This document shows, piece after piece, positions 3,860 through 56,575 of a DNA stretch of 64,000 nucleotides. The position numbers and the translations under genes are program-made. Origin of the DNA: Malacoraja senta (Eukaryota); assembly GCA_038087875.1 (NCBI GenBank), contig CM075988.1:18416001-18480000 (forward strand). Reading direction: 5' to 3'. The notes under the pieces were generated by a model, which had not been told where the DNA came from, ran no database searches, and saw only the letters and a program-made list of their open reading frames with translations. The stretch's first letter is position 1. Every line of letters begins with the position of its first letter.

Positions 3860-3994
3860 GGATTTCAGTCTGAAGAAGGGTTTCGGCCCGAAACGTTGCC
3901 TATTTCCTTCGCTCCATAGATGCTGCTGCACCCGCTGAGTTCCTCCAGCACTTTTGTCTACCTTCAATTTTCCAGCATTTGCAGTTCCTTCTTA
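3860..3994 (+). mobile_element. Penelope-derived short element with hammerhead-like motif, nested in an opposite-strand copy of the same family
   Basis: CTGAAGAAGGGTTTCGGCCCGAAACGTT at 3870-3897; 15-bp TSD AGCATCTCTGGAGAA at 3845-3859 and 3995-4009. Confidence 0.8.
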
Positions 3995-4365
3995 AGCATC
4001 TCTGGAGAACATGGATAGGTGAAGTTTAAGGCCAAGACGTTTCAGACGTCCTAAAGAAAACCTCTGCTGAAACCTCTGCTCACCAGCCTGCGGCCTTTCA
4101 TCACTGACGTTGTATTGTTGTTTTTGCTGCCATAAACATTGCTCTGTCAGAGAGACAGAGCCATGGATCTGTGCAGCACAGAAACGGGCCCTTCAGCCCA
4201 CCTCATCCATGTCGACCAAGTTGGCCTAACCAACTAGTCCCATTTGTCTGCATGAGGCTAATATCCCACTAAACGGTTGCAATGATGTATGGTCTTTCCA
4301 CCGACTGGATAGCACGCAACAAAAGTATTTTACTGTACCTCGGCCCACGTGAAAACAAATTAAAC

Positions 4366-4720
4366 TTCAAAAACCCTTCCTATCCCTATATCTGTCCAAA
4401 TGTCCTATAACATTCATAATTGTATACATTTCAATAGTCTCCACTGGCAGCTCATTACAGATACTGACTATCTTCTGAGTGAAAAAAATGCTCCTGAGGT
4501 CCATCTTAAATCTCTTCCCTCTCACCTTAAGCCTGTGCCCTCTAGTTTTAGAATCCTCTACTCTGGGAAAAAGACTGGGAGCGTTCACTTTATCCATGCC
4601 CCTCATGGTTTTGTATACCACAATAAGGTCATCCTTCAGCCTCCTATGCTCGCTCGCTGGTAAAAAAAAGTCCCAGACTATCCAACATCTCCGGATATCT
4701 CCAGCCTGCAAGCCCAGGTC
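4366..4720 (-). mobile_element. CR1/HER1-type LINE ORF2 C-terminal fragment
   Basis: ORF 4367-4711: RRLKDDLIVVYKTMRGMDKV...SKTRGHRLKV...FFTQKIVSICNELP. Confidence 0.85.
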
Positions 4721-5013
4721 ACATCCCAGGTCAAGTCAAGTCAAGTTTATTCGTCACATACACATACGAGATGTGCAGTGAAATGAAAAGTGGCAATGCT
4801 CGTGGATTGTGCAAAAAACCAAACAAACTACAAAACAGAATGGAACAGAATCACATATTCACATATTACATATTTGTGGGAGGAAAAAAGAAAAAAACTG
4901 CAATTTTAAAAAGATACCACACAACATTAAAATGGTACAGTCAAGTTAACACTTAAAGTTAAAGTGAAACACTTCTACACCCATACTAACTTAATGATAT
5001 TCTTGTAAATGAG

Positions 5014-5179
5014 AAGGAAAATGCTGGTTAACACCGAATGTAGCCACAAAATTCTGGAGTAACTCAGCGGGTCAGGCAGTCTGAAGAAGGGTCTCGACCC
5101 GAAACGTCACCCCTTCCTACTCTCCAGAGACGCTGCCTGTCCACCCGCTGAGTTACTGCAGCATTTTGTGTCTATCTTC
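5014..5179. mobile_element. Penelope-derived fold-back insertion with hammerhead-like motif
   Basis: CTGAAGAAGGGTCTCGACCCGAAACGTC at 5081-5108; 12-bp TSD CTTGTAAATGAG at 5002-5013 and 5180-5191. Confidence 0.8.
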
Positions 5180-5973
5180 CTTGTAAATGAGGTTGAAGCA
5201 AATATTACACACAAAGTAATCATGCGCATGCAGAGGAGATTAGTTGAACTTGGCATCCTGTTCGACATTGGCACTGTGGGCCAAAGGGCCTGTTCCTGCA
5301 CTGTACAGTTCTTGTTCTACCAGTCTCTCATCCTTTGGACAGTTGAATCTTTCTTACCAGCTGGTGGCTAATTTCTACTGAATGTAAAATAAAGACAGAT
5401 TTTCCTGAGCTTCCCTTTTGGTCCAGAAATGCTTGGATCACTGGCCATCACCCAATGCCCCAACGGGTTCACGCACCACTTCCAATCAAACTCCGTCTCA
5501 ACTTCCCTAATCATCGCAGCACTGCTGGGAAAAGACTTTTAACAACACTAATGAGCATTTTTTCTTCTCTCCAACCAATTTTAGCGTTTTAATTAGCAGG
5601 GATGTCAGAGTACTAATGACTTCATCCCTCTGTAGTTGTGCCCGGTCGGTGGAGAAGCCCAGCTGACAATCTCCTCACTGGAGGGCTACCGTCGACACGC
5701 CAACTCGAGGGGAAAGCAGATGCAAGGGTTCCTACTGGCAATAGAAGGCAGGCGGATCTCGGTTCACTTTCATCCAGATCTGACTTGGAACCAACGTGCG
5801 GTTTCTGCGGACCTAGATTCTCCTCACGGACAAGGTTCGCCGTTCGTTCCAACGGCCACTCACCCGAGGACGTTCCTGCAAGTTAACCCGAGACCAACCT
5901 GTCGCAAGTGCATCTCCTGCACGGAGGTTTGTGCATGTAGATTTAGACTTTAAACTGTAGAGATAAAACAGGG

Positions 5974-6266
5974 AGGCACGATGGTAGAGTTGCTGCCTTA
6001 CAGCGCCAGAGACCCCGGTTCGATCCTGGCTATGGGTGCTGTCTGTACAGAGTTTGTACGTTCTCCCCGTGACCGCGTGGGTCTTTGCCAAGATCTTCGG
6101 TTTCCCCCCACACTCCAAAAACGTACAGGTTTGTAGGTTAATTGGCTTGGTAGAAGTGTAAATTGTCCCTGGTGTGTGTAGGATAGTGTTAATGCCGGTG
6201 TGGACTCGGTGGGCCGAAGGGCCTATTTCTGCGCTGTATCTCTAAACTAAACTAAACTAAACTAAA
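5974..6266 (+). mobile_element. HE1-like V-SINE, near full length
   Basis: tRNA-like head with GGTTCGATCC B box, V-domain-like core, CR1-derived tail GGGCCGAAGGGCCT, (CTAAA)n end. Confidence 0.85.
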
Positions 6267-6339
6267 TGCGGAAACAGGCCATTTGGCCCACCGAGTCCCC
6301 AAACTTCAACACATCATATTGCATAAGAAATACAATGTA

Positions 6340-6720
6340 TGTAAACTGTGGTCTGTGGAGCGTCCTGACACGGGCGGCGCTGACTTTAAACACCGCGGAG
6401 CCTGGGATCTCTCGCCGAGATCGCCAGTATGTGGACTTCGGGAGCCGCGGTCTCCGGGGAGGAAGCGGCCGTTCCAGACACTCCAAGCCGCTGAGAGTGT
6501 TCTCCCGGCGCCGGAGCTCCATCACCCGGCGAGAGGGCCTGAAACATCGGGCCGCCGTCGCGGCGACTGCGGAGGCTTCAATAGGCCCGACCATGGGTCG
6601 AACAAGAGGAAGAGGACTGGACTTTGTTGCCTTCCCTCACAGTGGGAACCATTGTGGGGGGATGTTTTTATGTTCAATGTTAAATTCTTTGTTGTGTTGT
6701 GTTTTGTTTTTGTTGGTGTG
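6340..6720 (+). repeat. GC/CpG-rich unclassified repeat-like segment
   Basis: Abrupt CpG-rich block between repeats followed by T-rich sequence; no recognisable protein. Confidence 0.35.
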
Positions 6721-6726
6721 CTGCAG

Positions 6727-6912
6727 ATGGCTCGGAAAAGATGGCTGCCGGAGGTGAGAGTGAACTCTGGTGCGATTGGCTGCCGCTGCTCTCTCTCCGA
6801 ATTGTGTATTGTTGCTGTATATGTTGTTTTTGTTTCATGCTTGTTTTAACTGTAAGGTGTCCTTGAGAGTCCTGAAAGGCGCCCATAAATAAAATGCATT
6901 ATTACGATTATT
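6727..6912 (+). mobile_element. Short element with an L2-type 3' tail
   Basis: Ends TGTAAGGTGTCCTTGAG...TGAAAGGCGCCCATAAATAAAATGCATTATTA, the L2-type terminal motif. Confidence 0.55.
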
Positions 6913-8504
6913 AAACTCATCGCTAATAATAATAATTTAATAGATTGTTCAGCTATTTTTGCTCATCTTATTTGTGAATAAGTATAATTTATTTATTCTG
7001 GCTTGAAAATAAGATTGCATTCTTTTTCGTAAAAACTTTATAAAACAGATATCCCAATGGAAATATTTTTGAAGGTTATGGCTGATTGCAAGATATCCCC
7101 CCATTCGCAATAGAACCAGTTTTGTATTAAATGGTCTTGTGAAATGTACTGTGTTGTCAAAGGTCAAGATTCATATTCCAGGTGTGTTCACACCGTAAAA
7201 AATACCCCACCATCTTAAGGGACGTGGATAAAGTGAACTCTCAGAGTCTTTACCCAGCGTAGAGGATTCTAAAACTAGAGGGTACAGGCTTAAGATGAGA
7301 AGGGACCACAGCAGCAACTTTTTCACTGAGGTCAATTATGACTTTTAAAAGACATTTGAAATGATATAAGTAGAAAGGGTTTCGAAGGATTTGGGCTTAT
7401 AGCGTGCCTTTAATTTAAGAAAACAATTTCGGATGGGCACATCAAAGCAAAGACTGTATATAGTAAGGAGATATTTAGATAGATGATCGGATGCTTGATT
7501 GAAGAGATAGCATTTAAGAAAAATCTTCCCCTTCCCTCCAAAAATGCACAAAATTGAATAATCAAAATAAATATACTTAGTTCACAACTCTGCAATAAAC
7601 ATGTAGTAGGAAGCTCGATTGTAGGGAAGGAATGTCAGCGATTCCAACCTTGGCTGCCAATAGTGGAGCAGTTAAAGGTGGGGAGCTCCGGTGATGAGGA
7701 ATCTTATCGTTCACAATTAGCTCTAATTTAGCATATTTAGTTCAAAGATACAGCATGGAAACAGACCCTTCGGCTCACCGAGCCCACGCCGACCAGCGAT
7801 CTGAAGTTTGAAGAAGGGTCTCGACCCAAGATGTCAAACGTTCCTTTTCTCCAGAGATGCTACCTGACCCGCTGAGGCACTCCAGCATTTTGTGTCCATC
7901 ACCCACACACACTTGTTCTCTGTCATCCCACTTTCTCATCCACTCCCGACACACAAGGGGAAGTTTACAGAGGGCAATCAACCTACAAACCCACGCGTCT
8001 TTGGGATGTGGGAGGAAACTGGAGCACCCCGAGGAAAACCACGGGAAGAACATGCAAACTCCACACAGACAGCACCCGTGGTCGGTTTCAAACCCGGGAC
8101 TCTGGCTTTATCAGGAGAGTAATCTGCTTTTCTGAGGAGAAACGTCTTAGGAGGTTCTCTTGTTTTCTGTGTTAACTCCAAAATGCAGTCTTTGAAACAG
8201 CATTTCTGAAACATGCAAATTAAAAAAAATTGATAAATTTGCATCCTTTATCCAAATGAAATTTAATCGCTTTCAACCGAATGCATTAGAAAGCAGCAAC
8301 ATGCAAGAATCTCCTCAGTGTGAGTGTCTTTGCCACCTGCTCTCTTTAAGCAATCAGTCAAAGGATATAAAGGAAATGCACAATTTCAAAATGCAGCCAA
8401 AAGCAAAGGAGAAAATAATTTATTTAACCTCGAGCTAATCAATGTATCCTTGCCGACAGATAGGCTTCTCTGCAACATTTTTTGTTCTGGTAATTAATTA
8501 AATA

Positions 8505-8574
8505 AACTGACCTGATTACTAATGTTGTGGGTACTTTTAACTGACCTGATTACTAATGTTGTGGGTACTTTTAA
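8505..8574. repeat. Perfect 34-bp tandem duplication
   Basis: AACTGACCTGATTACTAATGTTGTGGGTACTTTT x2. Confidence 0.95.
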
Positions 8575-9110
8575 GTCTTTTACCCAGGGTGAGGGAATCA
8601 AACGCAAGAAGACATACTTGAAGGTGAGAGGGAAAGATTCAATAGAAACCCGAGGGGCGACCTTTTCATTCAGAGGGTGGTGGGTAAATGGGTAAACGAG
8701 CTGCCAGAGGAGGTAGTTGAGGCAGGTGCTATAACAGCATTAAAAAATACACTTGGACAGGTGCATGGATAGGAAAGGTTTAGAGAGATGTGTAGGAAGG
8801 AAATACAGATGCTGGTTTACACCAAGGACAGACAGACATAAAACTCAGCGGGACAGGCAACATCTCTGGATAGAAGGAATGGGTGATGTTTCGGATTGAG
8901 AGCTTTCTTCAGACTTTAGTCCTTCCATCCTTCTACCCAGAGATGCTGCCTGTCCCGCTAAGTTACTCCAGCATTTTGTGTCTATCCAAGGTTTAGAGGG
9001 ATATGGACCAAATGCAGGCAAATGGGACTAGCTTAGATGGGGGCATTTTGGTCAGCATGGACAAGTTGGGCTGAAGGGACGGTTTCCATGCCGTATGACA
9101 TTGTGACTCT
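8574..9110 (+). mobile_element. CR1-type LINE 3' end interrupted by a Penelope-derived fold-back insertion (8790-8987)
   Basis: CR1 tail motifs; insert bounded by AAGGTTTAGAG(A/G)GAT at 8775-8789 and 8988-9002. Confidence 0.75.
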
Positions 9111-9141
9111 ACTAGGCTGAGGCAACATGGAAACAGCCTCA

Positions 9142-12826: not shown

Positions 12827-12834
12827 TAAGAATC

Positions 12835-13501: not shown

Positions 13502-13637
13502 CTCTGAAGAAGGGTTCCGACCCAAAACGACCCGACCTGCTTTTTTTCTCCAGAGATGCTGCCTGACCCGTTGAGTTACTGTGTCATTTTGTGTCTATCT
13601 TCGGTGTCAACCAGCATCCGCGGTCCCTTGCTACACA
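13502..13637 (+). mobile_element. Penelope-derived short element with degenerate hammerhead core
   Basis: CTGAAGAAGGGTTCCGACCCAAAACG; 10-bp TSD CTCTTGACTC at 13492-13501 and 13638-13647. Confidence 0.75.
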
Positions 13638-14204
13638 CTCTTGACTCTTCCCCCTGTTGTCCCCATCCTCATCCATCCCATGAAATAATGGTAGTTATTA
13701 TATAACGAGGAGTCAAGAGCGTTCAATTGTCCCAAGTCCTGAAACGGAAGAATGAGATTCTCACTCACAAACAGAGACAGCAGCAGCACCGCGGCCTGGC
13801 GCCAACCCGGAGCATGCGCCCTTTTTAGGGCGGGCACCTACGGATGTCGAACCGGATGGCATCACCCCTGCTGTCGAATTGAGAGTAGGTGGAGATAAAC
13901 TGTGAGCCGTGTATCTATAGACAAGCAACGTCTACAGTCTATCCCGAAGATAGACACAACTTGCTGGAGTAACTCAGCAGGACAGGCAGCATCTCTGGAG
14001 AGGAAGGAATGGGTGATGTTTCTGGTCGAGGCCCATCTTCCATCTTATCTACCGACTGCACTAGCTGTCAACACCGCGATTCACAATGCCCAGAATGTGC
14101 AGTGCATTATAAGGCCTCACAACTCATAAAGTTTACTACAAAAGAAAGTGTCCTTGGTAAACAACGATAATGAGGCAGCAAAGAGATCTTTGGTTACTAA
14201 CTTT

Positions 14205-17415: not shown

Positions 17416-17625
17416 GACTAAACCAAACCCTTGATCCTGTCCCACCAGCCTTTGTGTTCATTGATATTTTATTCACAATATTAGGATTTCATAGAGGGAG
17501 GGAGCAACTCCGCACAGACTTTGGTTGTTATTGTCCTTATTCAGATGATAGATTTAAATAAAATTGCTGCGGGGAGTTGATGATCTCTTCTGCCGATTCT
17601 TGAGAACGGGACCTCACGGAGGCAT

Positions 17626-17715
17626 GACACAAAATGCTGGAGTAACTCTGCGGGACAGGCAGCATCTCTGCCGAGAAGGAATGGGTGACGTTTCGGGTCG
17701 AGACCCTTCTTCAGA
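17626..17715 (-). mobile_element. Penelope-derived short element with intact hammerhead-like core
   Basis: Reverse complement of 17687-17714 = CTGAAGAAGGGTCTCGACCCGAAACGTC; TSD CA(C/T)GGAGGCAT at 17615-17625 and 17716-17726. Confidence 0.8.
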
Positions 17716-18074
17716 CATGGAGGCATAGATGGGGGGAATAGCAAAGAAAATCAAAACCTGGGCCCATTAGGTCAGGTCATGTTTATCTTCCCGCGCATGT
17801 GTACCGTGAGATAAGGGTGCAATGAAAATCTTGCTTTCAGCAGCATTGCAGGCACATAGGCTCACACAGCACACAAATAAAATATAGACATAAAATTCTA
17901 AAGGAAGAAGACATATTGCCAAAAACAAGACATTAGTCCAAACACGATTAGTTAAAAAAAACAATTCTATGACAGGAACTCAGGCAGGTTGACTGTTGTA
18001 GATGGGGCATGTTGGTCGGCGTGGGCCGAAGGGCCTGTATGACTCTATGATAGTGCAAGAGATGGCCCATAGTG

Positions 18075-29850: not shown

Positions 29851-30122
29851 TTTAGTTTAGTTTAGAGATACAGCGCGGAAACAGGACCTTTGGCCCACCG
29901 GGTCTGTGCCGACCAGCGATTCCTGTACACTTACACCATCCTACACACACTAGGGACAATTTACAATGATACCAAGCCAAATAACCTACAAAGTTGTACG
30001 TCTTTGGAGTGTGGGAGGAAACTGGAGATCCCGGGGAAAACCCACAGGGGAGAACGTACAAACTCCGTACAGACAGCAGCCGTGGTCAGGATCGAACCTT
30101 GGTCTCTGGCGCTGTAAGGCAG
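29851..30122 (-). mobile_element. HE1-like V-SINE
   Basis: (TTTAG)n tail, core and B box on the minus strand. Confidence 0.85.
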
Positions 30123-30387
30123 AGTGAGGGTCCCAGGCTTTGCAGCCAATTATCTGCAAACACACTGACTGGGAGGCCAGTCACTAACTGCCCCTGCACT
30201 GGCTACAGACTTCTATCATCAGACAGATGGCAGACGAGGTCATTATTTATCTGCCCCAGTTCCAGGAAGTGGTACGAGATAAAGAGCAGTTAAACCACAG
30301 CAATTTCCTCGATTAAACGCAAGTTCTTCTCATTGGGAAATTGGAACAGGAACCATATCAGTGTGTAGTTAGACAATAAACATATTT

Positions 30388-30595
30388 GCATCGAAGGCAA
30401 ACACAAAATGATGGGGTAGCTCAGCGGGCGAGGCAGCTTCTCTGGAGAGAAGGAATGGGCGATGTTTCTTCAGAAGAAGGGTCTCGACCCGAAACGTCGC
30501 CCATTCCTTCTCTCCAGAGATGCTGCCTCACCCGCTCAGTTACTCCAGCATTTTGTGTCTACCTTCAACTTAAACCAGCATCTGCAGTTCTTTCT
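30388..30595. mobile_element. Penelope-derived fold-back insertion
   Basis: Inverted arms around CAGAAGAAGGGTCTCGACCCGAAACGTC; 11-bp TSD TAAACATATTT at 30377-30387 and 30596-30606. Confidence 0.8.
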
Positions 30596-30908
30596 TAAAC
30601 ATATTTACATGATGATTGAAATCTCCAGACGATAACTAGAAGCTGTAAGATGGAAGGCCACATCTCATTGATGGATCCCCAGTGCTTCCTCAGAAGGTGG
30701 AGGAGATTCCAAATATTGAGTTTAAATTTAGTTTATTGTCTTGTGTACCGAGGTACAGAGAAAAGTTTTTGTGTCGTGCTAACCATCAGTGGAATAACAA
30801 TACACGATTACAATCGAGCCATCCACAATGTACAGATACATGATGATGGGAATAATGTGGATAACCTTCAGTGCAAGATAAAGTCCAGTAAAATCTGATC
30901 ATAGTTAA

Positions 30909-31850: not shown

Positions 31851-33244
31851 CAAACAAATACCCTATTGAATTTCTACAGGTGTACGGTAGAGAGCACATT
31901 AACTGGTTGTATCGTGAACTGGTTCAGCAACTTGTCCACCCAGGAGCACAGGAGATTACACCTTTAAACATTATGATAGTATCTGCCTCAATAACCTCCT
32001 CTGGCAGCTCGTTCCATATACTTACTACCCTTTGTGTAAAAGCATTGTATGTAAATAGTAAATTGCCCCTGGTGTGTAGGATAGTGCTAGTGTACGGGGA
32101 TCGCAGGTCGGCGTGAAAGGCCTATTTCCACATTGTATCTCTACACTAAACTAAACACCCCTGTGTTTAAATGGCACACCATATTCTTAAAGAATTTTCT
32201 TAACGAATCAAGGCGTTAATTTAGCTTTAATCTTGGAATTGAGTTGTCATGTGCTTGATGCCGAGGTCAATCTTTCCCCCCTTACCTTAAACCTTATGGT
32301 CTCTGGTTCTTGATTCCCCGACTCTGGGTAAACTGTGCATTCACACCATCTATTCCCCTCATGGTTTTATACACCTTACGTTCATCTCTAATCCTGTCCA
32401 AGACGTTGGTGAGGCCACGTTTGAGTCCGCACTGCCTTCAGGTTCACATCAAGCTCGGAGAAAGCGGCCAAATCTGCTCAAAGAGGAGGAACAGCCAGGG
32501 ACACAAGGGGGGGGGGGGTCTCAGTTCGAAAGACCAGCGTCAAACCACGAATGAAGTGTGTACAAAGCCCTTCATTGTCCAAGGACACCCTCGGCTGAAA
32601 AGACCATTGGAAAAATATGGCCAGTATTTTCCCCCCCAAAAATCCCCCAAAACGCCGTGTAACAACTTAAGAATGTCACAATAAAACCACAGATACAAGA
32701 CAAGGGAGAATTTCATAAATAACTCAAACTGACCCGGGACTGGTATTCGAACACCCATGATTACAATTTGCAAGCAGCTCCTGCCTAAACTCACAAAGGA
32801 GCGTTTTAATCCTTTCAATACCATTGTGCGTGCAGCTTTAATGCTGCAGCATAGGAAAAGGTAATTACCGCAATACACACTGCACAACTTGGATATCAAA
32901 TACCTTTTCACCAGGGCCTCCACGGAGTCAGTGAACACGGATAAATAAAGACCCTGCATCTGCAGATCACTTAGAGCCTGTACTGCCTGCAGTGCTTTGC
33001 TCTGAAAGGGCTCAGTGGGCCGATTCAAATGCAGATGCCAACCCGAGGTGAAACAAAGCATGCTGGGGCAACAGGACTTGTAAACAACCCAACTGCAGTT
33101 GCTCACGTGTCCCTTTCCACCCAAATCATTCCAAGGATGTACCTCCAGATTCACGGACACTTTCTTCCCAGCTGTTATCAGGCAACTGAACTGTCCTCTC
33201 ACCAACTAGAGAGCGGTCCTGCCCTCCCATCTACCTCATTGGAG

Positions 33245-33427
33245 GTACACAAAAATGCTGGAGAAACTCAGCGGGTGCAGCAGCATCTATGGAGCGAAGG
33301 AAATAGGCAACGTTTCGGGCCGAAACCCTTCTTCAGACTCCGCTCCATAGATGCTGCTGCACCCGCTGAGTTTCTCCAGCATTTTTGTGTACCTTCGATT
33401 TTCCAGCATCTGCAGTTCCTTCTTTAA
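33245..33427. mobile_element. Young Penelope-derived fold-back insertion with hammerhead-like core on the minus strand
   Basis: Core at 33309-33336; near-perfect inverted arms; 13-bp TSD TACCTCATTGGAG at 33232-33244 and 33428-33440. Confidence 0.85.
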
Positions 33428-34194
33428 TACCTCATTGGAGACCCTGGTACTATCTTTTATCAGACTTTAATGGACTTTATCTTGCACTAAACGTTATACC
33501 CATCATCCTGTATCTGTACACTGTGGATGGCGATTGTAATCATGTATAGACTTCTTGCTGACCGGATAGCATGCAGCAAAGCAACATTTCACTGTACCTC
33601 GGTACACTTGACAATAATAGACTAAACCTTAAAACTAACATAGAAACATAGAAAATAGGTGCAGGAATAGACCATTCGGCCCTTCGAGCCTGCACCGCCA
33701 TTCAATATAATGATGGCTGATCATCCAACTCAGTATCCTGTACCTGCCTTCTCTCCATACCCCCTGACCCCTTTAGCCACAAGGGCCACATCTAACTCCC
33801 TCTTAAATATAGCCAATGAACTGGCCTCGACTACCCTCTGTGGCAGAGAATTCCACTGTACCTTGGCAACAGTACACCGCGGATCACATTATCATGGACT
33901 TTTTTTCCAATTGTATATCTTTGCAATGGCTTTTTTTTTTTTTGCTGCAGTATTCATTTTCAATCTGTTAAATGTGCAAGTTAGATATAATTTATGGTTT
34001 TGTATGATGTCCGAGTCCAGATGCCTGTGATGCTGCTGCAAGTGACATTTCCATTGTACCTGTACCTCACCACACAAGCGCATGTGGTAATAAACTTGAC
34101 TTGACCATCCCTCTGTCTCCACAGAAGCTGCCTGATCCGCTGAGTTCCTCCAGCACTTTGTTTTTTTTCCTTGACATTTGCTGACCAACGTTTA

Positions 34195-36666: not shown

Positions 36667-36815
36667 GGGTTTCGTCAGGAAGTCTGAAGAAGGGATTCAA
36701 CCCGAAACGTTGCCTATTTCCTTCGCTCCATAGATGCTGCCTCACCCGTGCTTGAGTTTCTCCAGCATTTTTGTGTGCCTATGATTTTCCAGCATCTGCA
36801 GTTCCTTCTTAAAAG
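36667..36815 (+). mobile_element. Penelope-derived short element with hammerhead-like core
   Basis: CTGAAGAAGGGATTCAACCCGAAACGTT at 36684-36711; 14-bp TSD TGCAGTCACAGGAA at 36653-36666 and 36816-36829. Confidence 0.8.
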
Positions 36816-37049
36816 TGCAGTCACAGGAACTCCCCTGACAAGTCCTTCCAGTTACATTTCTTCCTATGGGCCTGTGTAAATCACTGATTCATCACAGGAC
36901 AGTCAAGTGGATTCATTTTATGAATCAGAAACTTTATTTTATGGAATTTTATGGAACCAGCTGCCAGATGAGGTAGTTGAGGCAATGTTCACAAAACATT
37001 TAGACAGGTACATGGATAGGGATAGGCTTGGAGAGACATGGACCAAACG

Positions 37050-46109: not shown

Positions 46110-46423
46110 GATTTAGATTTAAACTTCAGAGCCAAAATAGGCACTTCGGCCGACCAAATCCCCTCCGACCAGCGATCACCTGTACATTAACACTATCCCA
46201 CACACTAGGGACAATTTAAAGAGAGCAAGTTTTTTACAGAGGGCAATTAACCGCTAAACCCGTACGTCTTTGGAGTGTGGGAAGAAACCGGAGCACCCTG
46301 GGAAAACCCACACGGCAACAGTGAGAACATGCGAACTCCGTACAGACAGCACCTGTAGTCAGGATCAAACCCGGGTCTCTGACTGTTCGGCAGCATCTCT
46401 ACTGCTACGCCACTGTGCCAACC
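46110..46423 (-). mobile_element. HE1-like V-SINE
   Basis: Core and head on the minus strand. Confidence 0.75.
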
Positions 46424-48427: not shown

Positions 48428-49852
48428 TGGAGCCCTCAACTTACGGGAGTTGAACTCTCCTGAATCAAAGACTGGGATGCAAAAATCCACGCTAACCTTC
48501 AGGAGAACACTGAGAGGCTCACTGGCTATGATGCTGCATTGTCGATGTGTGTTAAAACGAGGACAGCTTTGACCCCTGCTGTAAAAGCTCATAAGTTCAT
48601 AAGTTATAGGAGCAGAATTAAACCATTCGGCCCAACAAGTCTACTCAGCCATTCAATCATGGCTGATCTATCTATCCCTCTCAACTGCCTTCTCCTCATA
48701 ACTCCTGACAACCTTAAAAAGTCTGTTGCTCTTCTGACTGAGCTATCCGGGCCCCAGCACACTACATTAAAGAATCGCCGATATTTATCCCGCATAAAAA
48801 TAGCAGAACTAGTATGACAGAGATACAAGGAACTGCAGATACTGTAATTTTGTGCAAATTGCCAAATGCTGGAGTAACTCTGCAGGTCAGGCCCCACCTG
48901 GAGAGGGCATGGCCTGACGATGTGTCGGGCCGGGACCCTTCTTCAGACATCTCCAAACACCTCAGGTTCTAGGTTCCTCACCATTCTCTTCACCATTTCA
49001 CTGACTTCTGATATCTAGGCTCCCATCACCTCATCTTGAGTCTGAAGAAGGGTCTCGACACAAAACATCGTCTGTCCATTTCCCCCTACAGAAGCTGTCT
49101 GACCCACTGAATTCAACCAACACTTGTGTTTTTATAATCAGCAGAATGACTACTCCACGGGCTCTAACCATCTTACGGATGTAATCCGATCTTCCCCCAA
49201 CTATGGAAGTACAAGTGAAGCAAGTCACAACAACATTCAAGGCACAAACACACACACATCGGTACATTTCCACTGGCAAGAAATATTTGCACCTTGCAAA
49301 AGATCGCTCTCCAGAGATGCTCCCTGTCCCACTGAGGTCATAAGTGATCAGAGCAGAATTAGGCCATTCGGCCCATCAAGTCTACCCTGCCATTCAATCA
49401 TGGCTGATCTATCTTTCCCTCCAAACCCCATTCCCCTGCCTTCCCGCCATAACCCCTGACATCCGTATTAATCAAGAATCCATCTGTGTCTGCCTTAAAA
49501 ATATCCATTGACTTGGCCTCCACAGCCTTGTGTGGCAATGAATTCCACAGATTCACCGCCCTCAGAGTTGCTCCAGCATTTTGAGTCTATCTTTGGTGTC
49601 AACCAGTATCTGCAGTTCCTTCCTACACAAAGATTGTACCACAGCGCAGATTTAGGATGCATGTTATTTACAAGAGTTTAAATACAGTAACTATTTCTGA
49701 ATCTGATGCTGTTTGTGGAAGCGTTCGAGACAAGTCACAGAGAGTTCTTATCACTGATCGCAGAACGAGTGGGTTGCGTCTGTCGGACAAGAATAGCTCG
49801 GTGCTCCCGGGACACCGAGACTACTGAACATTCCTGCCATTCCTGCACTTCA

Positions 49853-49955
49853 GATAGACACTAAATGCTGGAGTAACTCAGCGGGACAGGCAGCATCTCT
49901 GGAGAGAAGGAATGGGTGACGTTTCGGGTCGGGACCCTTCTTCAGACTGACTTCT
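49853..49955 (-). mobile_element. Penelope-derived short element with intact hammerhead-like core
   Basis: Core at 49918-49945; 13-bp TSD TTCCTGCACTTCA at 49840-49852 and 49956-49968. Confidence 0.85.
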
Positions 49956-51091
49956 TTCCTGCACTTCATACATGAAGACAGGCCAGGGATCTCCAGGCTG
50001 GCTTCAAACGGGATCACAATTCAGTGCCAAAGACAAACCTTCCATTGTGAGACTCCTGTGGCCTTTATCACAGATCTGGGTCACTCGGTGAAAAACCATT
50101 ACCTCAGCCTTCCTATTCTGATCTTTGTCAACAGTAACGTTCTCAGGGATGGGCTCGGTGAGAGAAGGGGGGGGGGGTCGGAGGACGGGGCTATAGGCAG
50201 AACATGGAGGACTAGGTTGCCATGGCTACAGATGGGCTACCTCTTTAGCAGTCTCTTAGTAAAGAGAATGATTTACACCCTCGCCAGTTAGTGGATTAAT
50301 TAAACAACAGGCATTTGGCTGACACAGCAGGCGATAAACTTTCAGCAACAGAGACAGAAGGGTCAAAGTCGTAAATATTCCCCCTTCAGCAAAGCACATT
50401 TCCATTAATAGTGGAGATTTTTTGCTTCGAACCTCTAACCACATCGATTTAAAATATATCGTGCACAAAAAGGAACATCTTCCATCCTGACAACATATAA
50501 CACAGGCAAAGACAAGCTCCCTCCCCCCCCCCCCCCCCACTTCACCCCCGAGAGGAGGTGGGTTGCGGGGATTCGAACCCGCGTCTCTCCCCTCAACGAG
50601 TAATTGCCGGTTGCATACATCGCTACTCTGCCCAGACCGTGTCCAACAGTGACACCGCTGGCCACTCGCGGCACTGCAAGGGCACAGCGTTGTTTAGGAG
50701 TTGCCCAGTGGTGTCACTCTTGTGTAGATTTAGCAACAGAAATCCCAAAGAGACAGGCGAAATGTGTTGGAAAGGAACTGCAGATGCTGGTTTAAACCGA
50801 AGATGGACACTCAGCGGGACAGGCAGCATCACTGGAGAGAAGGAATGGGTGGCCCAGACTGTAGAAGGGCCTGTCTTAATTCTATCCAGAGATGCTGCCT
50901 GACTCACTCCAGCATTTTGTGTCTACCTATGTTAATTGTCACATGTACCAGCAATCGTTATACGTACCACTGTGGCCTGTGGTTTTACACTATTATAGTC
51001 ACCTAATATTTATTATTAACTTATGTATTGCTGATTATATTTATCTATGTGTTATTACATTAATACCAGCAAACGGAAACATGAAAGTCTT

Positions 51092-51271
51092 TAAGAAGGA
51101 ACTGCAGATGCTGGAAAATCGAAGGCAGACAAAAATGCTGGAGAAACTCAGCGGGTGCAGCAGCATCTATGGAGCGAAGGAAATAGGCGACGTTTCGGGC
51201 CGAAACGTTGCCTATTTCCTTCGCTCCATAGATGCTGCTGCACCCGCTGAGTTTCTCCAGCATTTTTGTCC
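51092..51271. mobile_element. Young Penelope-derived fold-back insertion
   Basis: Near-perfect palindrome centred on CGTTTCGG-G-CCGAAACG; 14-bp TSD AACATGAAAGTCTT at 51078-51091 and 51272-51285. Confidence 0.85.
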
Positions 51272-51764
51272 AACATGAAAGTCTTGCTTGCTGTAGCTTG
51301 CAACGATTCAATGATATTTTATTGTCACATGTACGCAAGTGCGGTGAAATGTGTTGTTTTGCATGCAACCCAGTAATCTCATGCAGCCGACCGCATCGAG
51401 GCAGTACACTAGTGTCACTACGTTCTGCTGCCAAAGTTGCAGAAGTCTACCGGACAGTTCTATCTACTGCCTGCTGTTGAACATGGTAGCAGTCTTCCCC
51501 CCCTTCCCTTCCAGCCAGGCCCCCCCACCGCCCATTCTCCCCCACCGCCCATCCCCCCCCCACCCCCCCTCCTCCTCCGCGCCCCCCTTCTTTCTCTGTA
51601 AGGACTCGTTTATAGGCACATTAATGTAATAACACAGATAAATATATACAATAATCAAATACCATAGATAATCTATATTAGTTAACCATAGTGGTGCTAA
51701 ACCAGAGTCTGTGGTGCAACCAAAGGCACAGTCTGTAGAAGATCATAGTTGCTGAGGTAGCTGT

Positions 51765-52870: not shown

Positions 52871-54272
52871 CATTAATCAAAGTCTAATGCTGCATTAGAT
52901 AGATTTCAGACCAATATTTCCACATTGGTGTTTTTCATCAGTTACACAAATAAGAGGATAAACACTCACACTTCAACAGGCTCTGAAATAATCCCCCCAA
53001 ATCCAAACACTATCCCTACTTGCATTTGGTAGCAGTCAAACTTGGCAAGGCTAAACCAAGAGCAAGCTTGGTCAAGCCCCGAATTTATCAATAATCAGAT
53101 TACACAAAATACTTCAAAAACAACTGGCAACATTATCAAAGCACAGAAGCAAGAAATAATCTCCTGAAATCTCCAAGTAATTTGATGCAAATAAGTGTGA
53201 GTGTTCCACCAACATCAACCAGGACCATTTGTTATTTGTTAATCACCACCCAGCCCAGAGGGGGGGTAGACAAAGCAACCGTTTCACATTCCTTAGTGCA
53301 CAGATCACTGTGGGTCACAGGCAAATGAAGCAATGTAAATGTCCATCTCTTCCACTTCCACTTCCACACACACACACACACCAAATGCTTCTTGGCAGAA
53401 CATGTCCCACAACTAACCCCTCCCTGTCTTTCACAGTTCACTACTCAGGTTTATTCACTTCCAGGAGACATGAAAAACTGCAGATGCTGGAACCGTGAGC
53501 AAAACACAAAAGTGCTTCTGTTTGAAGAAGGGCCCCGACACAAAACGCCGTCTGTCCATTCCCCCGACAGACGCTGCCTGACCTATCGAGTTCCTCGAGT
53601 ACTTTGTTTTAATCAGTAACAGGGCTGGTTCAGTGTAAAACCCAAACCAACCACTGCCAACACGAACCTATGTATCATTTGTGCAAAATAAAAATCACCC
53701 AGTCAAACTTGATATCTCCCACCAATAAAGCCTTCCCAGCTAAAACCCCTCGTTCATCCCCAACATAGGACCGTCACAGCTCCTCGTGACAGGCGAGCAA
53801 CATAGAACACGGATCAGAACAGCACAAGAATAGGCCCACAATTCAGTGCTGAAAACTGTGGTGTTCATTGTTTTTTATACTGAACTTTATGCTTGTTTAT
53901 GACAGTGTTTAAAGAGTATTATGCCAACATGGTTGTTGTGCTGCTGCAAGTAAGAATCCAGGTTCAGGAGCAGCTTCTCCCCTACAACCACTTGGCAATT
54001 AAACACGACAACCTCCAAATAGGCTCTAACGGGTCTCGACCCGAAACGTCACTCATCCCTTCTCTCCAGAGTTGCTGCCTGTCCCGCTGAGTTTCTTCAG
54101 CTTTTTGTGTCTATCTTCGGTCTAAACTACATTATATAGACTTGGGGGCAATGTTTTTGACTGTGCATTACTCTGGTCTATTTATTTGTTTATATCCACA
54201 CATATATACGAAGATTTATATGTGTATATGCACAGGTGTATATGTGGGTTTTACAGATTTCAATGTTTAAAT

Positions 54273-54518
54273 AGGTAGACAAAAGTGCCGGAGAAACTCA
54301 GCGGGTGAGGCAACATCTATGGAGTGAAGGAAATAGGCAACGTTTCGGGCCGAAACCCTTCTTCAGACTAGGTTTACATATCTGTGTTTAAGAAGGAACT
54401 GCAGATGCTGGAAAATCGAAGGTACACAAAAATGCTGGAGAAACTCAGCGGGTGCAGCAGCATCTATGGAGCGAAGGAAATAGGCAACGTTTCAGGCCGA
54501 AACCCTTCTTCACACTAT
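54273..54518 (-). mobile_element. Two tandem Penelope-derived hammerhead-like units
   Basis: Cores at 54339-54366 (intact) and 54486-54513 (mutated); GTTTACATATCTGT repeated at 54372-54385 and 54519-54532. Confidence 0.8.
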
Positions 54519-54992
54519 GTTTACATATCTGTTGTGCTGCCGAAGGAGGTATGACCGGGGTGGGAAAAGTTGTTGATTGTGTTGGCTGTTTTTCGGAGGC
54601 AGCGTGAAGTGTAGATGGAGGCAATGGTGGGAAGTCTAGCCTGGTCTGTGTGGTGGACTGGGCTACATCCACACATCTACGCAATTTCTCGCAGTCTTGG
54701 GCAGAGCTGCTCCCAAACCAAGCTGTGAAGTGCCCTGACAGTAAGGCACGTTTTAAAAGCTGTATCCTGCGGCACAGTCAGCTAACAAATGATCGAGTGC
54801 CCACACCCTCCGCCCCACCCTGTCAGTGTCAGTGTAGCCCTGGGGCCAAACACGGAGATAACACAAACGTCCTTCACATGATCTTCTTCACAGGCTGATA
54901 CAAGACACACTTGGAAGTCCACCGATCACATTTCCACAGGGCCCAGCTTAGAACAGTCACTGGAATGTTCAGGGGAATACCAACAACCGATC

Positions 54993-55254
54993 AGTCTGAA
55001 GAAGGGTCTCGACCCGAAACATCACCCATTTCTTCTCCCCAGAGATGCTGCCTGTCCCGCTGAGTTACTCTAGCATTTTATGTCTATCTTCTCTCCAGAG
55101 ATGCTGCCTGTCCCGCTGAGTTACTCCAGCATTCTGTGTCTATCTTCTCTCCAGAGATGCTGCCTGTCCCGCTGAGTTACTCCAGCATTTTGTGTCTATC
55201 TTCTCTCCAGAGATGCTGCCTGTCCCGCTGAGTTACTCCAGCATTCTGTGTCTG
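54993..55254 (+). mobile_element. Penelope-derived element with hammerhead-like head and a 4x56-bp tandem array
   Basis: Core at 54996-55023; array 55031-55253; 13-bp TSD CCAACAACCGATC at 54980-54992 and 55255-55267. Confidence 0.85.
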
Positions 55255-56575
55255 CCAACAACCGATCCGAGCTTTAAACCGACGTTAATCTCAGGAGCTA
55301 GGAGGCAGTTTGTGTTTTTGCAAATGTCTGGTCGACTGACAATTCACAACCCAGCTGCCGTGTGTTATCTTTTAATTAAACACTGCAGCCATTCACAGGA
55401 ATTCGTTTTTTTTCATATTTTGAAATCAAATTACAAGGGCATTTGCTTTAACAGGTAGGAAAACAAAAGACTCTGCTCGTGTTTAACATTCCTCAGAACC
55501 AAGATGGGGTCATGTTGTTTAATCAGCCTTTTATGTGAACCGTTCGTGTTAGGTTTGAAACAAGCTGGGGTGCGGACCTGCCCGCGCGCTTTCATGTGGT
55601 ATGTTATGTTTAGTTTTGTTTAGAGATACAACATGGAAACAGGCCCTTCCACCCACCGAGTCCACACTGACCAATGATCACCTGTTCACACTAGTTCTAT
55701 GTTGTCCTACAATCTCATCCACTCATCACTCTAGGGCCAATTTATGGGGGGGGGGGGCAATTAACCTCCATGCCCGCACGTCTTTAGGATGTGGGTGGAA
55801 ACCGGAGCACCCGGGGGAGTCCCACACGGTCGCAAGGGGAACATACAAACTCAACATAGACAGCACGGAAGGTCGTGACTGTCACACCAGCGTCACTCAC
55901 TCAGGGTGGGGGTGGGGGGGGAATCAGCATTAACTCACCGGAAAAAGAAATCCAGATAACAAAGTATAAACTAAACAACACAAGCACCAGAGCAAAGCAC
56001 AACCTGCGGGAGAGAATCTGAGGCAGCAAAAGCGAACAAGGCCTTCGCTTGTACCGCACGATCAGAACTCTATGTTAATAACGTTTTGGAGTTGCAGGAT
56101 TAGCAGACTGGATTACATTGCTTACTTGATTAAATTTTACTTAAAACAAGTTCGCAATAATTCTTCCAATTAGGATTTTGAATTTTCTATTCACTCTCAG
56201 CTAAGTGAATGGGCAATAAAAAGCTGCAAAAAAGAATTTCCACCTCAATGGCTACAATTTAATCTGCAAGTTATTACGGAGCAGTAATTAATTTTCCACA
56301 GACTTAAAACAAAACTTATTTATTGTTTTGACGGTTGAAATGTGGCAGCTGGGAGGGATCGGAGCATAGCCTAGGTGTGGAGTGGGCGATCCAGCTGCAG
56401 GTAGTGGTCCAGATGGGCAATGTTGGCTCAGGCAGCCTCCCATTTACAACGTTCGTATAGAACCAGGTAGTTGAGGCAGGTACTATTGCAACGTTTAAGA
56501 AACATTTAAACATCTACATGCTTGGGACAGGTTTAGAGGGACTTGGGCCAAACACAGGTAGGTGGGACAAGTGTA

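What the first reader, a model, noticed from the sequence alone, without database searches (positions are those of the whole stretch)
3860..55267. Abundant family of small hammerhead-ribozyme-like retro-insertions with 10-15 bp TSDs (Penelope-derived, retrozyme-like)
Seen: a ~130-bp unit recurs throughout the window, in roughly 30 whole or partial copies. It begins [AGT]CTGAAGA-A-GGGT(CTCG)ACCC-GAAAC-GTC or -GGGT(TTCG)GCCC-GAAAC-GTT. Best cores: 3870-3897(+), 5081-5108(+), 17687-17714(-), 33309-33336(-), 36684-36711(+), 49918-49945(-), 54339-54366(-). At least ten insertions have discrete 10-15 bp TSDs and no coding capacity. Established: CUGANGA...GAAA..UH is the hammerhead catalytic core; Penelope pseudo-LTRs carry minimal type I hammerheads whose palindromic helix III is thought to need dimerisation; an extra A after A9 is a known natural variant. 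Inference: a non-autonomous mini-element mobilised in trans by Penelope, with predicted cleavage after GUC/GUU. Caveat: helix I is only ~2 bp in these copies (GU/AC or GU/GC), so catalysis may be lost or need a partner.
Basis: partly seen in the sequence, partly recalled or inferred. Interest (0 to 1): 0.8.

Follow-up and report, generated by a model that had tools for sequence, protein, structure and literature searches.

The report
Penelope-element tails carrying hammerhead motifs
These short repeats are the tail ends of an extremely abundant Penelope-like jumping gene, each carrying a minimal hammerhead-ribozyme motif that is predicted to cut the element's RNA; the kind of element is already known, and this is a very prolific family of it.

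Summary
The core CTGAAGA-A-GGGTYYCGRCCC-GAAAC occurs 17 times in the window (0 expected). A profile finds 57 fragments covering 8.4% of the window. About ten insertions have 10-15-bp target-site duplications (TSDs).

The motif has the published features of the minimal type-I hammerhead of metazoan Penelope-like elements (PLEs). However, the units are not an independent family. They are the 3' terminal module of a PLE family found in the same genome. That family has a reverse transcriptase (RT), a CX4CX2C linker, a GIY-YIG endonuclease and a ~115-nt 3'UTR, followed by this unit. Copies 94-99% identical have open frames up to 1,032 aa, and one 4.0-kb copy carries the unit at both ends.

The insertions show the PLE signatures:
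- two discrete 3' ends about 36-40 nt apart (the "tail");
- an inverted 5'-truncated partner in 29 of 113 insertions, inside a single TSD;
- partial tandems.

Most 5' ends pile up at the 5' edge of the hammerhead, and I could not explain why. Elsewhere in the genome, ORF-less derivatives form retrozyme-like tandem arrays with 218-384-bp units.

Catalysis is untested. Helix I is 2 bp and no Rfam hammerhead model matches. 5' ends exactly at the predicted cut site are only about 2-4-fold enriched.

The scan holds 415 "hammerhead Penelope" notes on other genomes, none on look-alike sequence.

The parts
3647..4047 (.). Composite of several copies: a subfamily-B copy on the - strand (core 3736-3760), a B copy on the + strand at 3867-4000 with tail (core 3870-3894) preceded by an inverted arm, and a further inverted fragment at 3995-4047
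5017..5200 (+). Hairpin-type insertion: inverted 5'-truncated arm 5017-5083 abutting a direct copy 5078-5200 (core 5081-5105); one TSD, CTTGTAAATGAG
8787..8998 (.). Hairpin-type insertion (- copy with tail plus a + arm) inside one TSD of 15 bp with 1 mismatch
13503..13639 (+). Single copy running from the hammerhead edge to the end of the tail; TSD CTCTTGACTC (13 bp with 1 mismatch)
17620..17717 (-). Short-form copy of 98 bp that ends at the first 3' site (GTGTC); TSD ATGCCTCC(A/G)TG
   Evidence: read directly
30384..30604 (.). Hairpin-type insertion with both arms reaching the tail; the centre is the hammerhead helix II region (core 30471-30495, 1 mismatch)
33232..33428 (.). Hairpin-type insertion of subfamily B (core 33312-33336 on -); one TSD, TACCTCATTGGAG
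36680..36816 (+). Subfamily-B copy with tail; TSD TGCAGTCACAGGAA; 13 extra bases resembling helix II lie between the TSD and AAGT
49851..49953 (-). Short-form subfamily-A copy; TSD TGAAGTGCAGGAA; core 49921-49945
51086..51280 (.). Hairpin insertion joined at GTTTCGGGCCGAAAC, so it lacks CTGAAGA; TSD AACATGAAAGTCTT
54234..54516 (-). Two subfamily-B copies in tandem, 147 bp apart, each preceded by ACAGATATGTAAAC
54993..55261 (+). One insertion (TSD CCAACAACCGATC) that starts at AGTCTGAAGA and holds four 56-bp internal repeats of the 3' body
61951..62249 (.). Older copies; the - copy (core 62028-62052) continues upstream into pyrimidine-rich PLE 3'UTR-like sequence

Best explanation
The ~100-135-bp repeats are the 3' terminal module of a very abundant Penelope-like retrotransposon family (reverse transcriptase plus GIY-YIG endonuclease). 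They carry the minimal hammerhead motif typical of such elements, which is predicted, not shown, to cut the element's RNA after GUC/GUU.

Shown directly:
- Upstream of the unit, on the same strand, lie the end of the endonuclease ORF and a ~100-115-nt pyrimidine-rich 3'UTR.
- One 4.0-kb copy (L100) carries the unit at both ends. Its 5' copy is cut down to about the predicted cleavage site.
- Copies end at one of two discrete 3' sites, about 65 and about 101 nt after the predicted cut.
- About a quarter of insertions carry an inverted 5'-truncated partner inside one TSD.
- About 70% of core-bearing copies stop within a few bases of the 5' edge of the hammerhead.

Inferred:
- Copies arise by target-primed reverse transcription that starts internally at either of the two sites, as shown in vitro for the Anolis PLE (PAc).
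- Synthesis usually breaks off, or snaps back, just after the cDNA has copied the GC-rich helix II hairpin. This would give short dead-on-arrival insertions rather than a self-sustaining mini-element.
- The hammerhead has no helix III loop and a palindromic ACGU. It would therefore act, if at all, as a dimer on tandem or multimeric PLE RNA, probably helped by protein.
For: Motif and abundance.

Same-strand endonuclease ORF, 3'UTR, then the unit:
- L017 4561-5957 was read. It holds one 14-bp TSD around an inverted plus a direct copy.
- The GIY-YIG match there scores 32.1 bits against a cut-off of 22.6.
- An endonuclease-region query gave 150 of 150 scored matches, from 107,298 first-look candidates.
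- The RT and endonuclease regions of L061 align to residues 184-758 of a 759-aa RVT_1+GIY-YIG ORF.
- The linker reads C-NRRR-C-NT-C.

Young copies L095-L100 are 93.9-99.3% identical to one another, and L095 has a 1,032-aa open frame. In L100, the 104 nt at 1675-1778 are 100% identical to 5568-5671, and the TSD is AATAAA(A)TTTG.

Partial tandems: at 10 of 14 non-array loci that hold the junction from tail to internal region, an upstream endonuclease-end/3'UTR/hammerhead copy precedes it.

Two 3' ends: of 138 hits, 58 end at reference positions 880-899 and 61 at 910-924. In 30 subfamily-B copies the split was 15 to 15.

Inverted partners: 29 of 113 composites, each hairpin within a single TSD.

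5' pile-up: 92 of 138 hits start at reference positions 760-799, where AGT lies at 790. By eye, of 59 core-bearing copies about 16 run on into the 3'UTR, about 17 abut an inverted or tandem copy, and about 25 abut unrelated DNA.

Literature read: PMC4209133 (whole text); PMC11167929 (main text: two RT start sites, the tail, a protein-assisted hammerhead); PMC8557442 (passages: pLTRs, inverted copies, a 30-40-bp tail).

Relatives: 1,063 proteins at E<=0.001. The closest named ones are shark proteins at 66-70% identity.
Against: - No Rfam hammerhead model matches, either at gathering score in the window or at E<=10 in L017.
- Helix I is only 2 bp, even in long copies, because the upstream 3'UTR is pyrimidine-rich like the sequence after the cut.
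- Between subfamilies A and B the core is not measurably more conserved than the rest: 14/15 against 59/69 columns.
- Why 5' ends pile up at AGT is not settled. The snap-back idea fits the hairpins. It does not by itself explain the single copies that abut unrelated DNA.
- In the young subfamily B, 17 of 30 sampled copies run on into the 3'UTR. The pile-up is therefore weaker there than in subfamily A.
- Pfam scores of the intact-looking ORF fall below the curated cut-offs: RVT_1 26.4 against 29.6, and GIY-YIG 19.5 against 22.6.
Confidence: 0.85

Rival explanations
1. One reading: the short units are an independent, non-autonomous, retrozyme-like family with its own master copies, mobilised in trans by Penelope enzymes.
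For: Many copies have the same sharp 5' start, which random truncation does not predict. ORF-less derivatives that keep the hammerhead form head-to-tail arrays elsewhere in the genome. Their units are 218, 254, 275, 299, 350 and 384 bp, each with a different internal deletion junction. A 2026 preprint (10.64898/2026.07.22.740005; abstract and Results part 1 of 2 read) reports that vertebrate retrozymes derive from PLE pLTRs.
Against: Each subfamily of short copies (A and B) is also found as the 3' end of RT+endonuclease copies. The window copies are dispersed monomers or hairpins, not arrays; there is only one two-copy tandem, at 54234-54516. About a quarter of core-bearing copies run on into the PLE 3'UTR. 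The unit shows no promoter or head of its own, and Rfam at gathering score finds nothing in the window.
Confidence: 0.12
2. The short copies are run-off cDNAs. On this view the PLE RNA starts at the A of AGT, an initiator-like TCAGTCT inside the pseudo-LTR. RT that starts at the first downstream start site then runs off the capped 5' end, giving a 'solo pLTR'.
For: TCAGTCT fits the YYANWYY initiator consensus (a recalled motif; the sequence is). D. virilis Penelope is transcribed from an internal TATA-less promoter in its pLTR (PMC2377424, passages read). One full-length-type copy starts at AGT (L150). G is over-represented before AGT: 46 of the 100 listed sites, against about 30 expected.
Against: The excess of G is explained by hairpin junctions. 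In 11 of 20 GAGT copies the G comes from the inverted arm. Of 5 copies with a clear TSD, only 1 has an extra G. At 10 of 14 loci the RNA template must have begun upstream of AGT. In D. virilis the start site lies about 120 nt upstream of the hammerhead (PMC2377424; PMC4209133).
Confidence: 0.15
3. The hammerhead-like core no longer cuts RNA in this family. It is kept as a structural or RT-binding module of the PLE 3' end, or as a hitch-hiker.
For: Helix I is 2 bp and there is no Rfam match. The core is no more conserved than the rest. The minimum-free-energy fold of the whole unit pairs CUGAAGAAGG with the tail's CCUUCUU, which would hide the core (z = -2.0). In the Anolis PLE the hammerhead was not needed for insertion in vitro, and no RNA reads ended at its cut site (PMC11167929, main text read).
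Against: Every core nucleotide, the G10.1-C11.1 pair, the extra base and the ACGU palindrome are kept in both subfamilies. The differences between A and B are a loop change, a U-A to U.G change in helix II, and C17 to U17; all are tolerated by hammerheads. 5' ends exactly at the predicted cut are about 2-4 times commoner than at two control positions. Two independent arrays also begin exactly there.
Confidence: 0.3
4. The repeat is really a SINE or LINE 3' tail read on the opposite strand, or a foldback/MITE DNA transposon, and the hammerhead reading is a coincidence.
For: At first sight the CTGAAGA end looks fixed and the other end variable. Many copies are long inverted repeats.
Against: The RT-endonuclease ORF lies upstream on the strand that reads CTGAAGA...GAAAC. 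The 'variable' end is in fact two discrete sites. TSDs vary from 10 to 17 bp, and single arms are commoner than hairpins. The core matches 0 times in shuffled sequence.
Confidence: 0.02

Closest known systems
Minimal hammerheads (min-HHR) in pseudo-LTRs of metazoan Penelope-like elements (Cervera & de la Pena 2014, PMC4209133; Lunse, Weinberg & Breaker 2017, not held, known to me only through the review PMC6765202)
   Same: CUGANGA, one extra base, a helix II closed by G10.1-C11.1, then GAAA and a palindromic ACGU with no loop 3. The motifs are mostly single and scattered through the genome, some occur as close pairs on opposite strands, and they lie in the PLE terminal repeat.
   Different: Helix II here has only 4 bp with a CUCG or UUCG loop, whereas the published examples have 6-8 bp. 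Helix I is 2 bp; the paper gives 4-5 bp for most and 2 bp for D. virilis. The copy number is far higher than the 2,000-9,000 per genome quoted there.
Poseidon PLE of Anolis carolinensis, PAc (Frangieh et al. 2024, PMC11167929)
   Same: The hammerhead lies about 65-100 nt upstream of two alternative cDNA start sites 30-40 nt apart, which define an optional 'tail'. Copies are organised in tandem or as pLTRs.
   Different: In PAc the hammerhead overlaps the ORF start. Here it lies about 115 nt after the ORF stop, and the next unit's internal region follows the tail. Nothing was tested biochemically here.
Neptune/Nematis clades of endonuclease-bearing PLEs (Arkhipova 2006, as described in Craig et al. 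2021, PMC8557442)
   Same: C-terminal GIY-YIG endonuclease, preceded by a cysteine linker that fits CX2-5CxxC (C-NRRR-C-NT-C).
   Different: No phylogeny was made here, so the clade assignment rests on this one motif.
Non-LTR retrozymes of animals (Cervera & de la Pena 2020, PMC7229834, abstract only seen; Li, Clavereau & Pollet 2026 preprint)
   Same: Elsewhere in this genome, ORF-less PLE derivatives with one hammerhead per unit form head-to-tail arrays of 218-384-bp units.
   Different: The window's copies are dispersed monomers and hairpins with TSDs, not arrays. Circular RNA was not tested.
Penelope of Drosophila virilis (Schostak et al. 2008, PMC2377424; Cervera 2014)
   Same: A 2-bp helix I, and a pyrimidine tract plus AG directly upstream of the hammerhead. 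In D. virilis an intron ends at that position.
   Different: No spliced copies were found here. One specific donor-acceptor junction gave 0 genome hits.

Membership tests
Hammerhead ribozyme, minimal type I of PLEs | Core C3-U-G-A-N-G-A9 ... G12-A-A14 ... U16.1-H17 | tested here: met
   17 window sites at <=2 mismatches against 0 expected. The core is followed by GTC or GTT.
Hammerhead ribozyme, minimal type I of PLEs | Helix II closed by G10.1-C11.1, with an unpaired base between A9 and 10.1 | tested here: met
   A-GGGU(CUCG)ACCC in subfamily A and A-GGGU(UUCG)GCCC in B. The fourth pair is U-A against U.G, a change on one side only.
Hammerhead ribozyme, minimal type I of PLEs | No loop 3, with palindromic 15.2-16.2, so that two copies can build helix III | tested here: met
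   GAAAC-GUY gives A-C-G-U. Dimer formation itself was not tested.
Hammerhead ribozyme, minimal type I of PLEs | Helix I of about 4-6 bp | tested here: not met
   Only U-A and G-C can pair (AGU with ACC). The upstream 3'UTR in long copies is pyrimidine-rich and cannot pair. The paper does report a 2-bp helix I for D. virilis.
Hammerhead ribozyme (Rfam models) | Match to an Rfam hammerhead covariance model | tested here: not met
   0 hits at gathering score in the window. No hammerhead among 13 hits at E<=10 in L017.
Hammerhead ribozyme | Site-specific self-cleavage | tested here: inconclusive
   Only genomic footprints are available. 24 of 38 loci read at [not T]+ACC are true 5' junctions. At a control site 3 nt upstream the figure is 8 of 46, and at one 2 nt downstream it is 6 of 30, in a population three times larger. 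Two arrays start exactly at the cut. No raw RNA reads were on offer.
Penelope-like element with C-terminal endonuclease | One ORF with RT followed by a GIY-YIG endonuclease, on the same strand as the repeat | tested here: met
   In the intact-looking copy the Pfam scores are below the curated cut-offs. The A-type copy scores above the cut-off for GIY-YIG.
Penelope-like element with C-terminal endonuclease | Pseudo-LTRs from partial tandems; an inverted 5'-truncated copy at the 5' end | tested here: met
   10 of 14 junction loci have an upstream partial copy. L100 has the unit at both ends. 29 of 113 insertions are inverted pairs, each within one TSD.
Penelope-like element with C-terminal endonuclease | Optional 30-40-bp 'tail', reflecting two RT start sites | tested here: met
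   3' ends are bimodal, 58 against 61 of 138 hits. In subfamily B they fall at ...GTGTACC or 36 nt further on at ...TTTAACA.
Neptune/Nematis clade | CX2-5CxxC motif in the RT-endonuclease linker | tested here: met
   FPCNRRRCNTCPF in L061, L047 and L056. No tree was built.
Non-LTR retrozyme | ORF-less unit with a hammerhead, repeated head to tail | tested here: not met
   Not met by the window copies, which are dispersed. It is met at other loci of the genome: for example, 4 units of the 384-bp array read in L116 out of 13 array hits listed, and 10 listed units of 275 bp.
Non-LTR retrozyme | Circular RNA produced by hammerhead cleavage and ligation | not testable with these tools
   Only assembled contigs of public runs were on offer.
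SINE | tRNA-, 5S- or 7SL-derived head with a pol III promoter | tested here: not met
   No Rfam family reaches gathering score anywhere in the window. The unit starts with the hammerhead core.

The most novel reading that the evidence does not exclude
This genome may hold a fossil record that the PLE hammerhead really cuts in vivo, and that cut RNA is used as template. Dozens of insertions, snap-back hairpins and two independent tandem arrays (138-bp and 165-bp units) begin at exactly the nucleotide after the predicted GUU|ACC cut. The same young PLE lineage is caught shedding its ORF to give at least six different hammerhead-bearing tandem 'retrozymes'. That would make this family a natural system for settling what PLE hammerheads are for.
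Probability: 0.3. Interest if true: 0.6.

Novelty: new member of a known kind. Interest (0 to 1): 0.4.

Why it matters
PLE hammerheads are widespread, but their role is unresolved. In vitro they are weak, and in the one PLE studied biochemically they are not needed for insertion. This family offers tens of thousands of young copies. It includes intact-looking autonomous elements, solo terminal modules, hairpins and retrozyme-like arrays. With that material, 5'-end statistics and simple RNA experiments could show whether cleavage happens and what it feeds into. The family also makes up about 5% of the sampled DNA, so genome annotators should know what it is.

Tried and rejected
- RNA evidence: no RNA holder was listed and only Logan contigs were served. 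Laying four runs showed only that the element, but not its flanks, is present in thousands of contigs from three other coded organisms, and that the flank is present in one run. This says nothing about RNA ends or expression.
- Capped-5'-end test: the excess of G before AGT comes from inverted-arm junctions. Only 1 of 5 TSD-defined cases has an extra G.
- Splicing idea: a donor at +33 of the internal region joined to the acceptor-like CAG|T gave 0 genome hits at <=2 mismatches.
- Rfam at gathering score and at E<=10: no hammerhead.
- Core against flank conservation: only two clusters with >=3 members in 74 copies, and no difference between them. Per-copy column identity is also flat.
- The dominant GIY-YIG family of the genome (a 759-aa ORF in tandem arrays, L013-L015) is not the partner. 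It has no match to the unit's profile and carries a different core.
- Automated TSD calling with strict scores found few cases. A looser score with a control was used instead.
- Literature search for the core as a sequence word: 0 papers. Earlier scan notes by sequence: none.
- PDB sequence search with the ORF: nothing meaningful.
- Lunse et al. 2017 could not be opened.
- One translation request failed on a stop codon and was re-sent with corrected coordinates.

Full report
**1. The observation**

The core CTGAAGA-N-GGGT-NNNN-NCCC-GAAAC occurs 17 times in the window at up to 2 mismatches, where 100 shuffles gave none.

A profile built from 12 window copies finds 57 fragments. They cover 5,398 bases, which is 8.4% of the window, and group into 39 composite insertions. 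In an unselected sample of 264 kb (the window plus 200 kb from two other places), there are 151 fragments covering 5.5%.

The genome (G000) is 1.94 Gb. The exact 31-mer of subfamily A occurs 13,276 times. A 33-mer of subfamily B occurs 29,304 times. Reversed control patterns gave 0 in both cases.

Target-site duplications are real. In 11 of 39 composites the flanks match with a score of 9 or more, against a mean of 1.46 (maximum 5) in 50 controls with mismatched flanks. I discount three of the eleven as artefacts. I add three read by eye: 17620-17717, 49851-49953 and 54382-54516. That gives ten to eleven insertions with TSDs of 10-15 bp.

**2. What the unit belongs to**

Most window copies begin at (N)AGTCTGAAGA. 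Some copies, however, run on upstream into a pyrimidine-rich sequence.

A search of the genome for GIY-YIG domains returned a locus, L017, that I read base by base. Between two copies of the 14-bp TSD AGAGAATTGTCTTG it holds:
- an inverted 5'-truncated copy;
- a direct copy that ends with the C-terminus of a GIY-YIG ORF, about 100 nt of 3'UTR, and then the unit, from AGTCTGAAGAAGGG through to ...CTTACACAG.

The hammerhead reading and the ORF are on the same strand. This settles the orientation and rules out a SINE or LINE tail read on the other strand.

Further evidence for the ORF:
- The endonuclease-region protein finds 150 of 150 scored matches, out of 107,298 first-look candidates.
- Longer copies align to residues 184-758 of an unrelated 759-aa RVT_1+GIY-YIG ORF of the same genome.
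- They show YIDD and a linker C-NRRR-C-NT-C before the endonuclease. This fits the CX2-5CxxC motif that Craig et al. 2021 (PMC8557442, passages read) give for the Neptune and Nematis clades.
- A query from the RT region found copies with open frames up to 1,032 aa.

Six of these copies were fetched. Five are 5'-truncated at different points and match the sixth, L100, at 93.9-99.3% identity. The ORF gives weak RVT_1 and GIY-YIG Pfam matches. It has 1,063 relatives at E<=0.001, the closest named ones being shark proteins at 66-70% identity.

L100 positions 1675-5671 is a full-length copy of 4.0 kb. It is flanked by the TSD AATAAA(A)TTTG. At its 3' end it has the complete unit of 134 nt. At its 5' end it has the last 104 nt of the unit, 100% identical to the 3' copy. 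The unit is therefore the pseudo-LTR module of this PLE.

The dominant GIY-YIG family of the genome (a 759-aa ORF in arrays) is a different PLE and lacks this unit.

**3. Signatures of PLE insertion**

- *Two 3' ends.* Of 138 hits to a 924-nt reference, 58 end at positions 880-899 and 61 at 910-924. In subfamily B the two ends are ...TTTTTGTGTACC, 65 nt after the predicted cut, and ...CCTTCTTTAACA, 36 nt further on. This matches the optional 30-40-bp "tail". Frangieh et al. 2024 (PMC11167929, main text read) traced that tail to two internal RT start sites.
- *Inverted partners.* 29 of 113 composite insertions are inverted pairs. In the window, the hairpins at 5017-5200, 8787-8998, 33232-33428 and 51086-51280 each sit inside a single TSD. 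Each is therefore one insertion event. This is the "inverted 5'-truncated copy" that Craig et al. describe.
- *Partial tandems.* At 10 of 14 non-array loci that hold the junction from tail to internal region, an upstream endonuclease-end/3'UTR/hammerhead copy precedes it.
- *Internal repeats.* The insertion at 54993-55261 begins at AGTCTGAAGA, holds four 56-bp repeats of the 3' body, and is flanked by CCAACAACCGATC.

**4. The 5' pile-up**

Of the 138 hits, 92 start at reference positions 760-799, where AGT lies at 790. Only 15 start further upstream.

Among 59 core-bearing copies I judged by eye that about 16 run on into the 3'UTR, about 17 abut an inverted or tandem copy, and about 25 abut unrelated DNA. 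Truncation is thus far from random. This is the one respect in which the copies look like a unit in their own right.

I tested two explanations.

*A capped RNA 5' end at the A of AGT, which lies in an initiator-like TCAGTCT.* G is over-represented before AGT (46 of the 100 listed sites). But in 11 of 20 such copies the G comes from an inverted arm joined at TCG|AGT. Only 1 of 5 copies with a clear TSD has an extra G.

*A splice acceptor at the pyrimidine tract plus CAG|T.* In D. virilis an intron ends at the hammerhead (PMC4209133). The one donor-acceptor junction I could predict has 0 genome hits.

My preferred reading is that synthesis breaks off or snaps back once the cDNA has copied the GC-rich helix II hairpin. 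This fits the hairpins and the scatter of young 5' ends between AGT and GGG. It is an inference. In the young subfamily B, 17 of 30 sampled copies run on into the 3'UTR, so the pile-up is strongest in the older subfamily A.

**5. Is it a hammerhead, and does it cut?**

The motif has the features that Cervera & de la Pena 2014 list for PLE minimal hammerheads: the core, an extra base after A9, G10.1-C11.1, and a palindromic 15.2-16.2 with no loop 3. The differences between subfamilies A and B are a loop change, U-A to U.G in helix II, and C17 to U17. All are tolerated.

Against this:
- Helix I is 2 bp, even in long copies.
- No Rfam hammerhead model matches.
- Between A and B the core is no more conserved than the rest: 14/15 against 59/69 columns.
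- The minimum-free-energy fold of the whole unit pairs CUGAAGAAGG with the tail's CCUUCUU (z = -2.0; 8 of 200 shuffles fold as well).

No raw RNA reads were available.

As an indirect test I counted 5' ends exactly at the predicted cut, GTT|ACC, in subfamily B.
- *At the cut.* The pattern [not T]+ACC... has 163 hits, against 9,403 with T. Sixteen of the 163 lie in two arrays. Of 38 loci read, 24 are true junctions and 14 are point variants. Twelve of the junctions lie next to unrelated DNA, and in some the TSD abuts ACC directly (L165, L172, L262).
- *Control 3 nt upstream.* There are 213 hits. Of 46 unique loci read, 8 are junctions.
- *Control 2 nt downstream.* There are 483 hits in a population of 29,304. 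Of 30 read, 6 are junctions.

Scaled up, this gives roughly 90 junctions at the cut against about 35 and about 30. The excess is 2-4-fold, on small samples. It is suggestive, not proof.

In addition, two independent tandem arrays have their unit boundary exactly at |ACC and lack the core. One has 138-bp units with junction CAAGGTATG|ACC; the other has 165-bp units with junction CTCCTCCTCT|ACC. The 5' end of L100 lies 3-4 nt upstream of the cut.

**6. Retrozyme-like derivatives**

The junction from tail to internal region occurs 620 times. Many of these lie in head-to-tail arrays whose units are PLEs that have lost the ORF through different internal deletions but keep the hammerhead. The units are 218, 254, 275, 299, 350 and 384 bp. 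For the 384-bp array, 13 hits are listed and 4 units were read; for the 275-bp array, 10 units are listed.

This is the structure of animal non-LTR retrozymes. A 2026 preprint (Li, Clavereau & Pollet; abstract and Results part 1 of 2 read) derives those from PLE pLTRs, and reports them in the one cartilaginous fish it sampled. None of these arrays is in the window.

**7. Other species**

Contigs from three other coded organisms hold the element, but not its flanks, in thousands of pieces: 22,743, 3,867 and 20,697 records laid. One run also covers the unique flank without differences. The family is therefore shared by several species.

**8. Verdict**

The units are truncated 3' modules (pseudo-LTR parts) of a hugely successful Penelope-like element with the usual minimal hammerhead. 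They are not an independent mini-element, although the same lineage does spawn retrozyme-like arrays elsewhere in the genome.

This is a new member of a known kind. Its interest lies in the sheer number of young copies, the non-random 5' ends, and the hint that cleaved RNA is used as template.

A literature search for the core as a sequence word found nothing. I could not consult Dfam or Repbase, so the family may already be catalogued there.

Noticed in passing
G000:C14:18244830-18405869 and many small contigs (loci L013-L015): A second, unrelated PLE family: a 759-aa RVT_1+GIY-YIG ORF in long tandem arrays with periods of about 1.56, 3.75, 5.3 and 7.4 kb. It has its own hammerhead-like core, CTGACGA-A-GCTA(CAGTGA)TAGC-GAAAC, about 350 nt upstream of the ORF in L013. 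The 3.75-kb-period copy shows no such core.
   Followed up: partly
L105 (G000:C1:27815829-27818859) and L133 (G000:C1:381270700-381272400): Tandem arrays of 138-bp and 165-bp units. Each unit is made of the post-cleavage part of the unit plus 37 or 64 nt of the PLE internal 5' region. The hammerhead core is missing, and the unit boundary lies exactly at the predicted cut site.
   Followed up: partly
L098 2178-2744 (oriented so that the PLE reads +): A 39-nt piece of the PLE ORF region is repeated 12 times at 48-bp spacing inside one otherwise 99%-identical copy, an internal minisatellite expansion.
   Followed up: no
window 2854-3342: A low-complexity tandem region with spacings of 8-14 nt (family D1 of the repeat finder).
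   Followed up: no
window, e.g. 30047-30118, 59113-59184, 46274-46391 (families D6, D9, D13, D16): A second abundant repeat with about 10 copies. It has a block ...GGGAGGAAACYGGAGCACCCGGRG... followed by GGGGAGAACGTACAAACTCCGTACAGACAGCACC..GGATCGAACC. It looks SINE-like and was not identified.
   Followed up: no
window, families D12, D14/D17, D15, D18 (e.g. 6197-6255, 26040-26149, 12025-12090, 26350-26417): Four further repeat blocks of 9-12 copies each that often lie near one another. They are probably parts of one larger interspersed element and were not identified. Two PLE copies (L169, L175) are inserted at the same point of the D12-type repeat, with microhomology ACCTAT.
   Followed up: no
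L064 2351-5020 and L018 4217-5968: LINE-type reverse transcriptase ORFs unrelated to the PLE: one of 890 aa with RVT_1 and a weak zf-RVT match, and one of 584 aa with RVT_1.
   Followed up: partly
L100 5540-5671; window 54382-54516: In the predicted fold of the whole unit, the 5' hammerhead half (CUGAAGAAGG) pairs with the end of the tail (CCUUCUU). AGAUGCUG can pair with either of two CAGCAU motifs, one lying before each 3' end site, so the tail looks like a diverged duplicate of the segment before the first site.
   Followed up: partly
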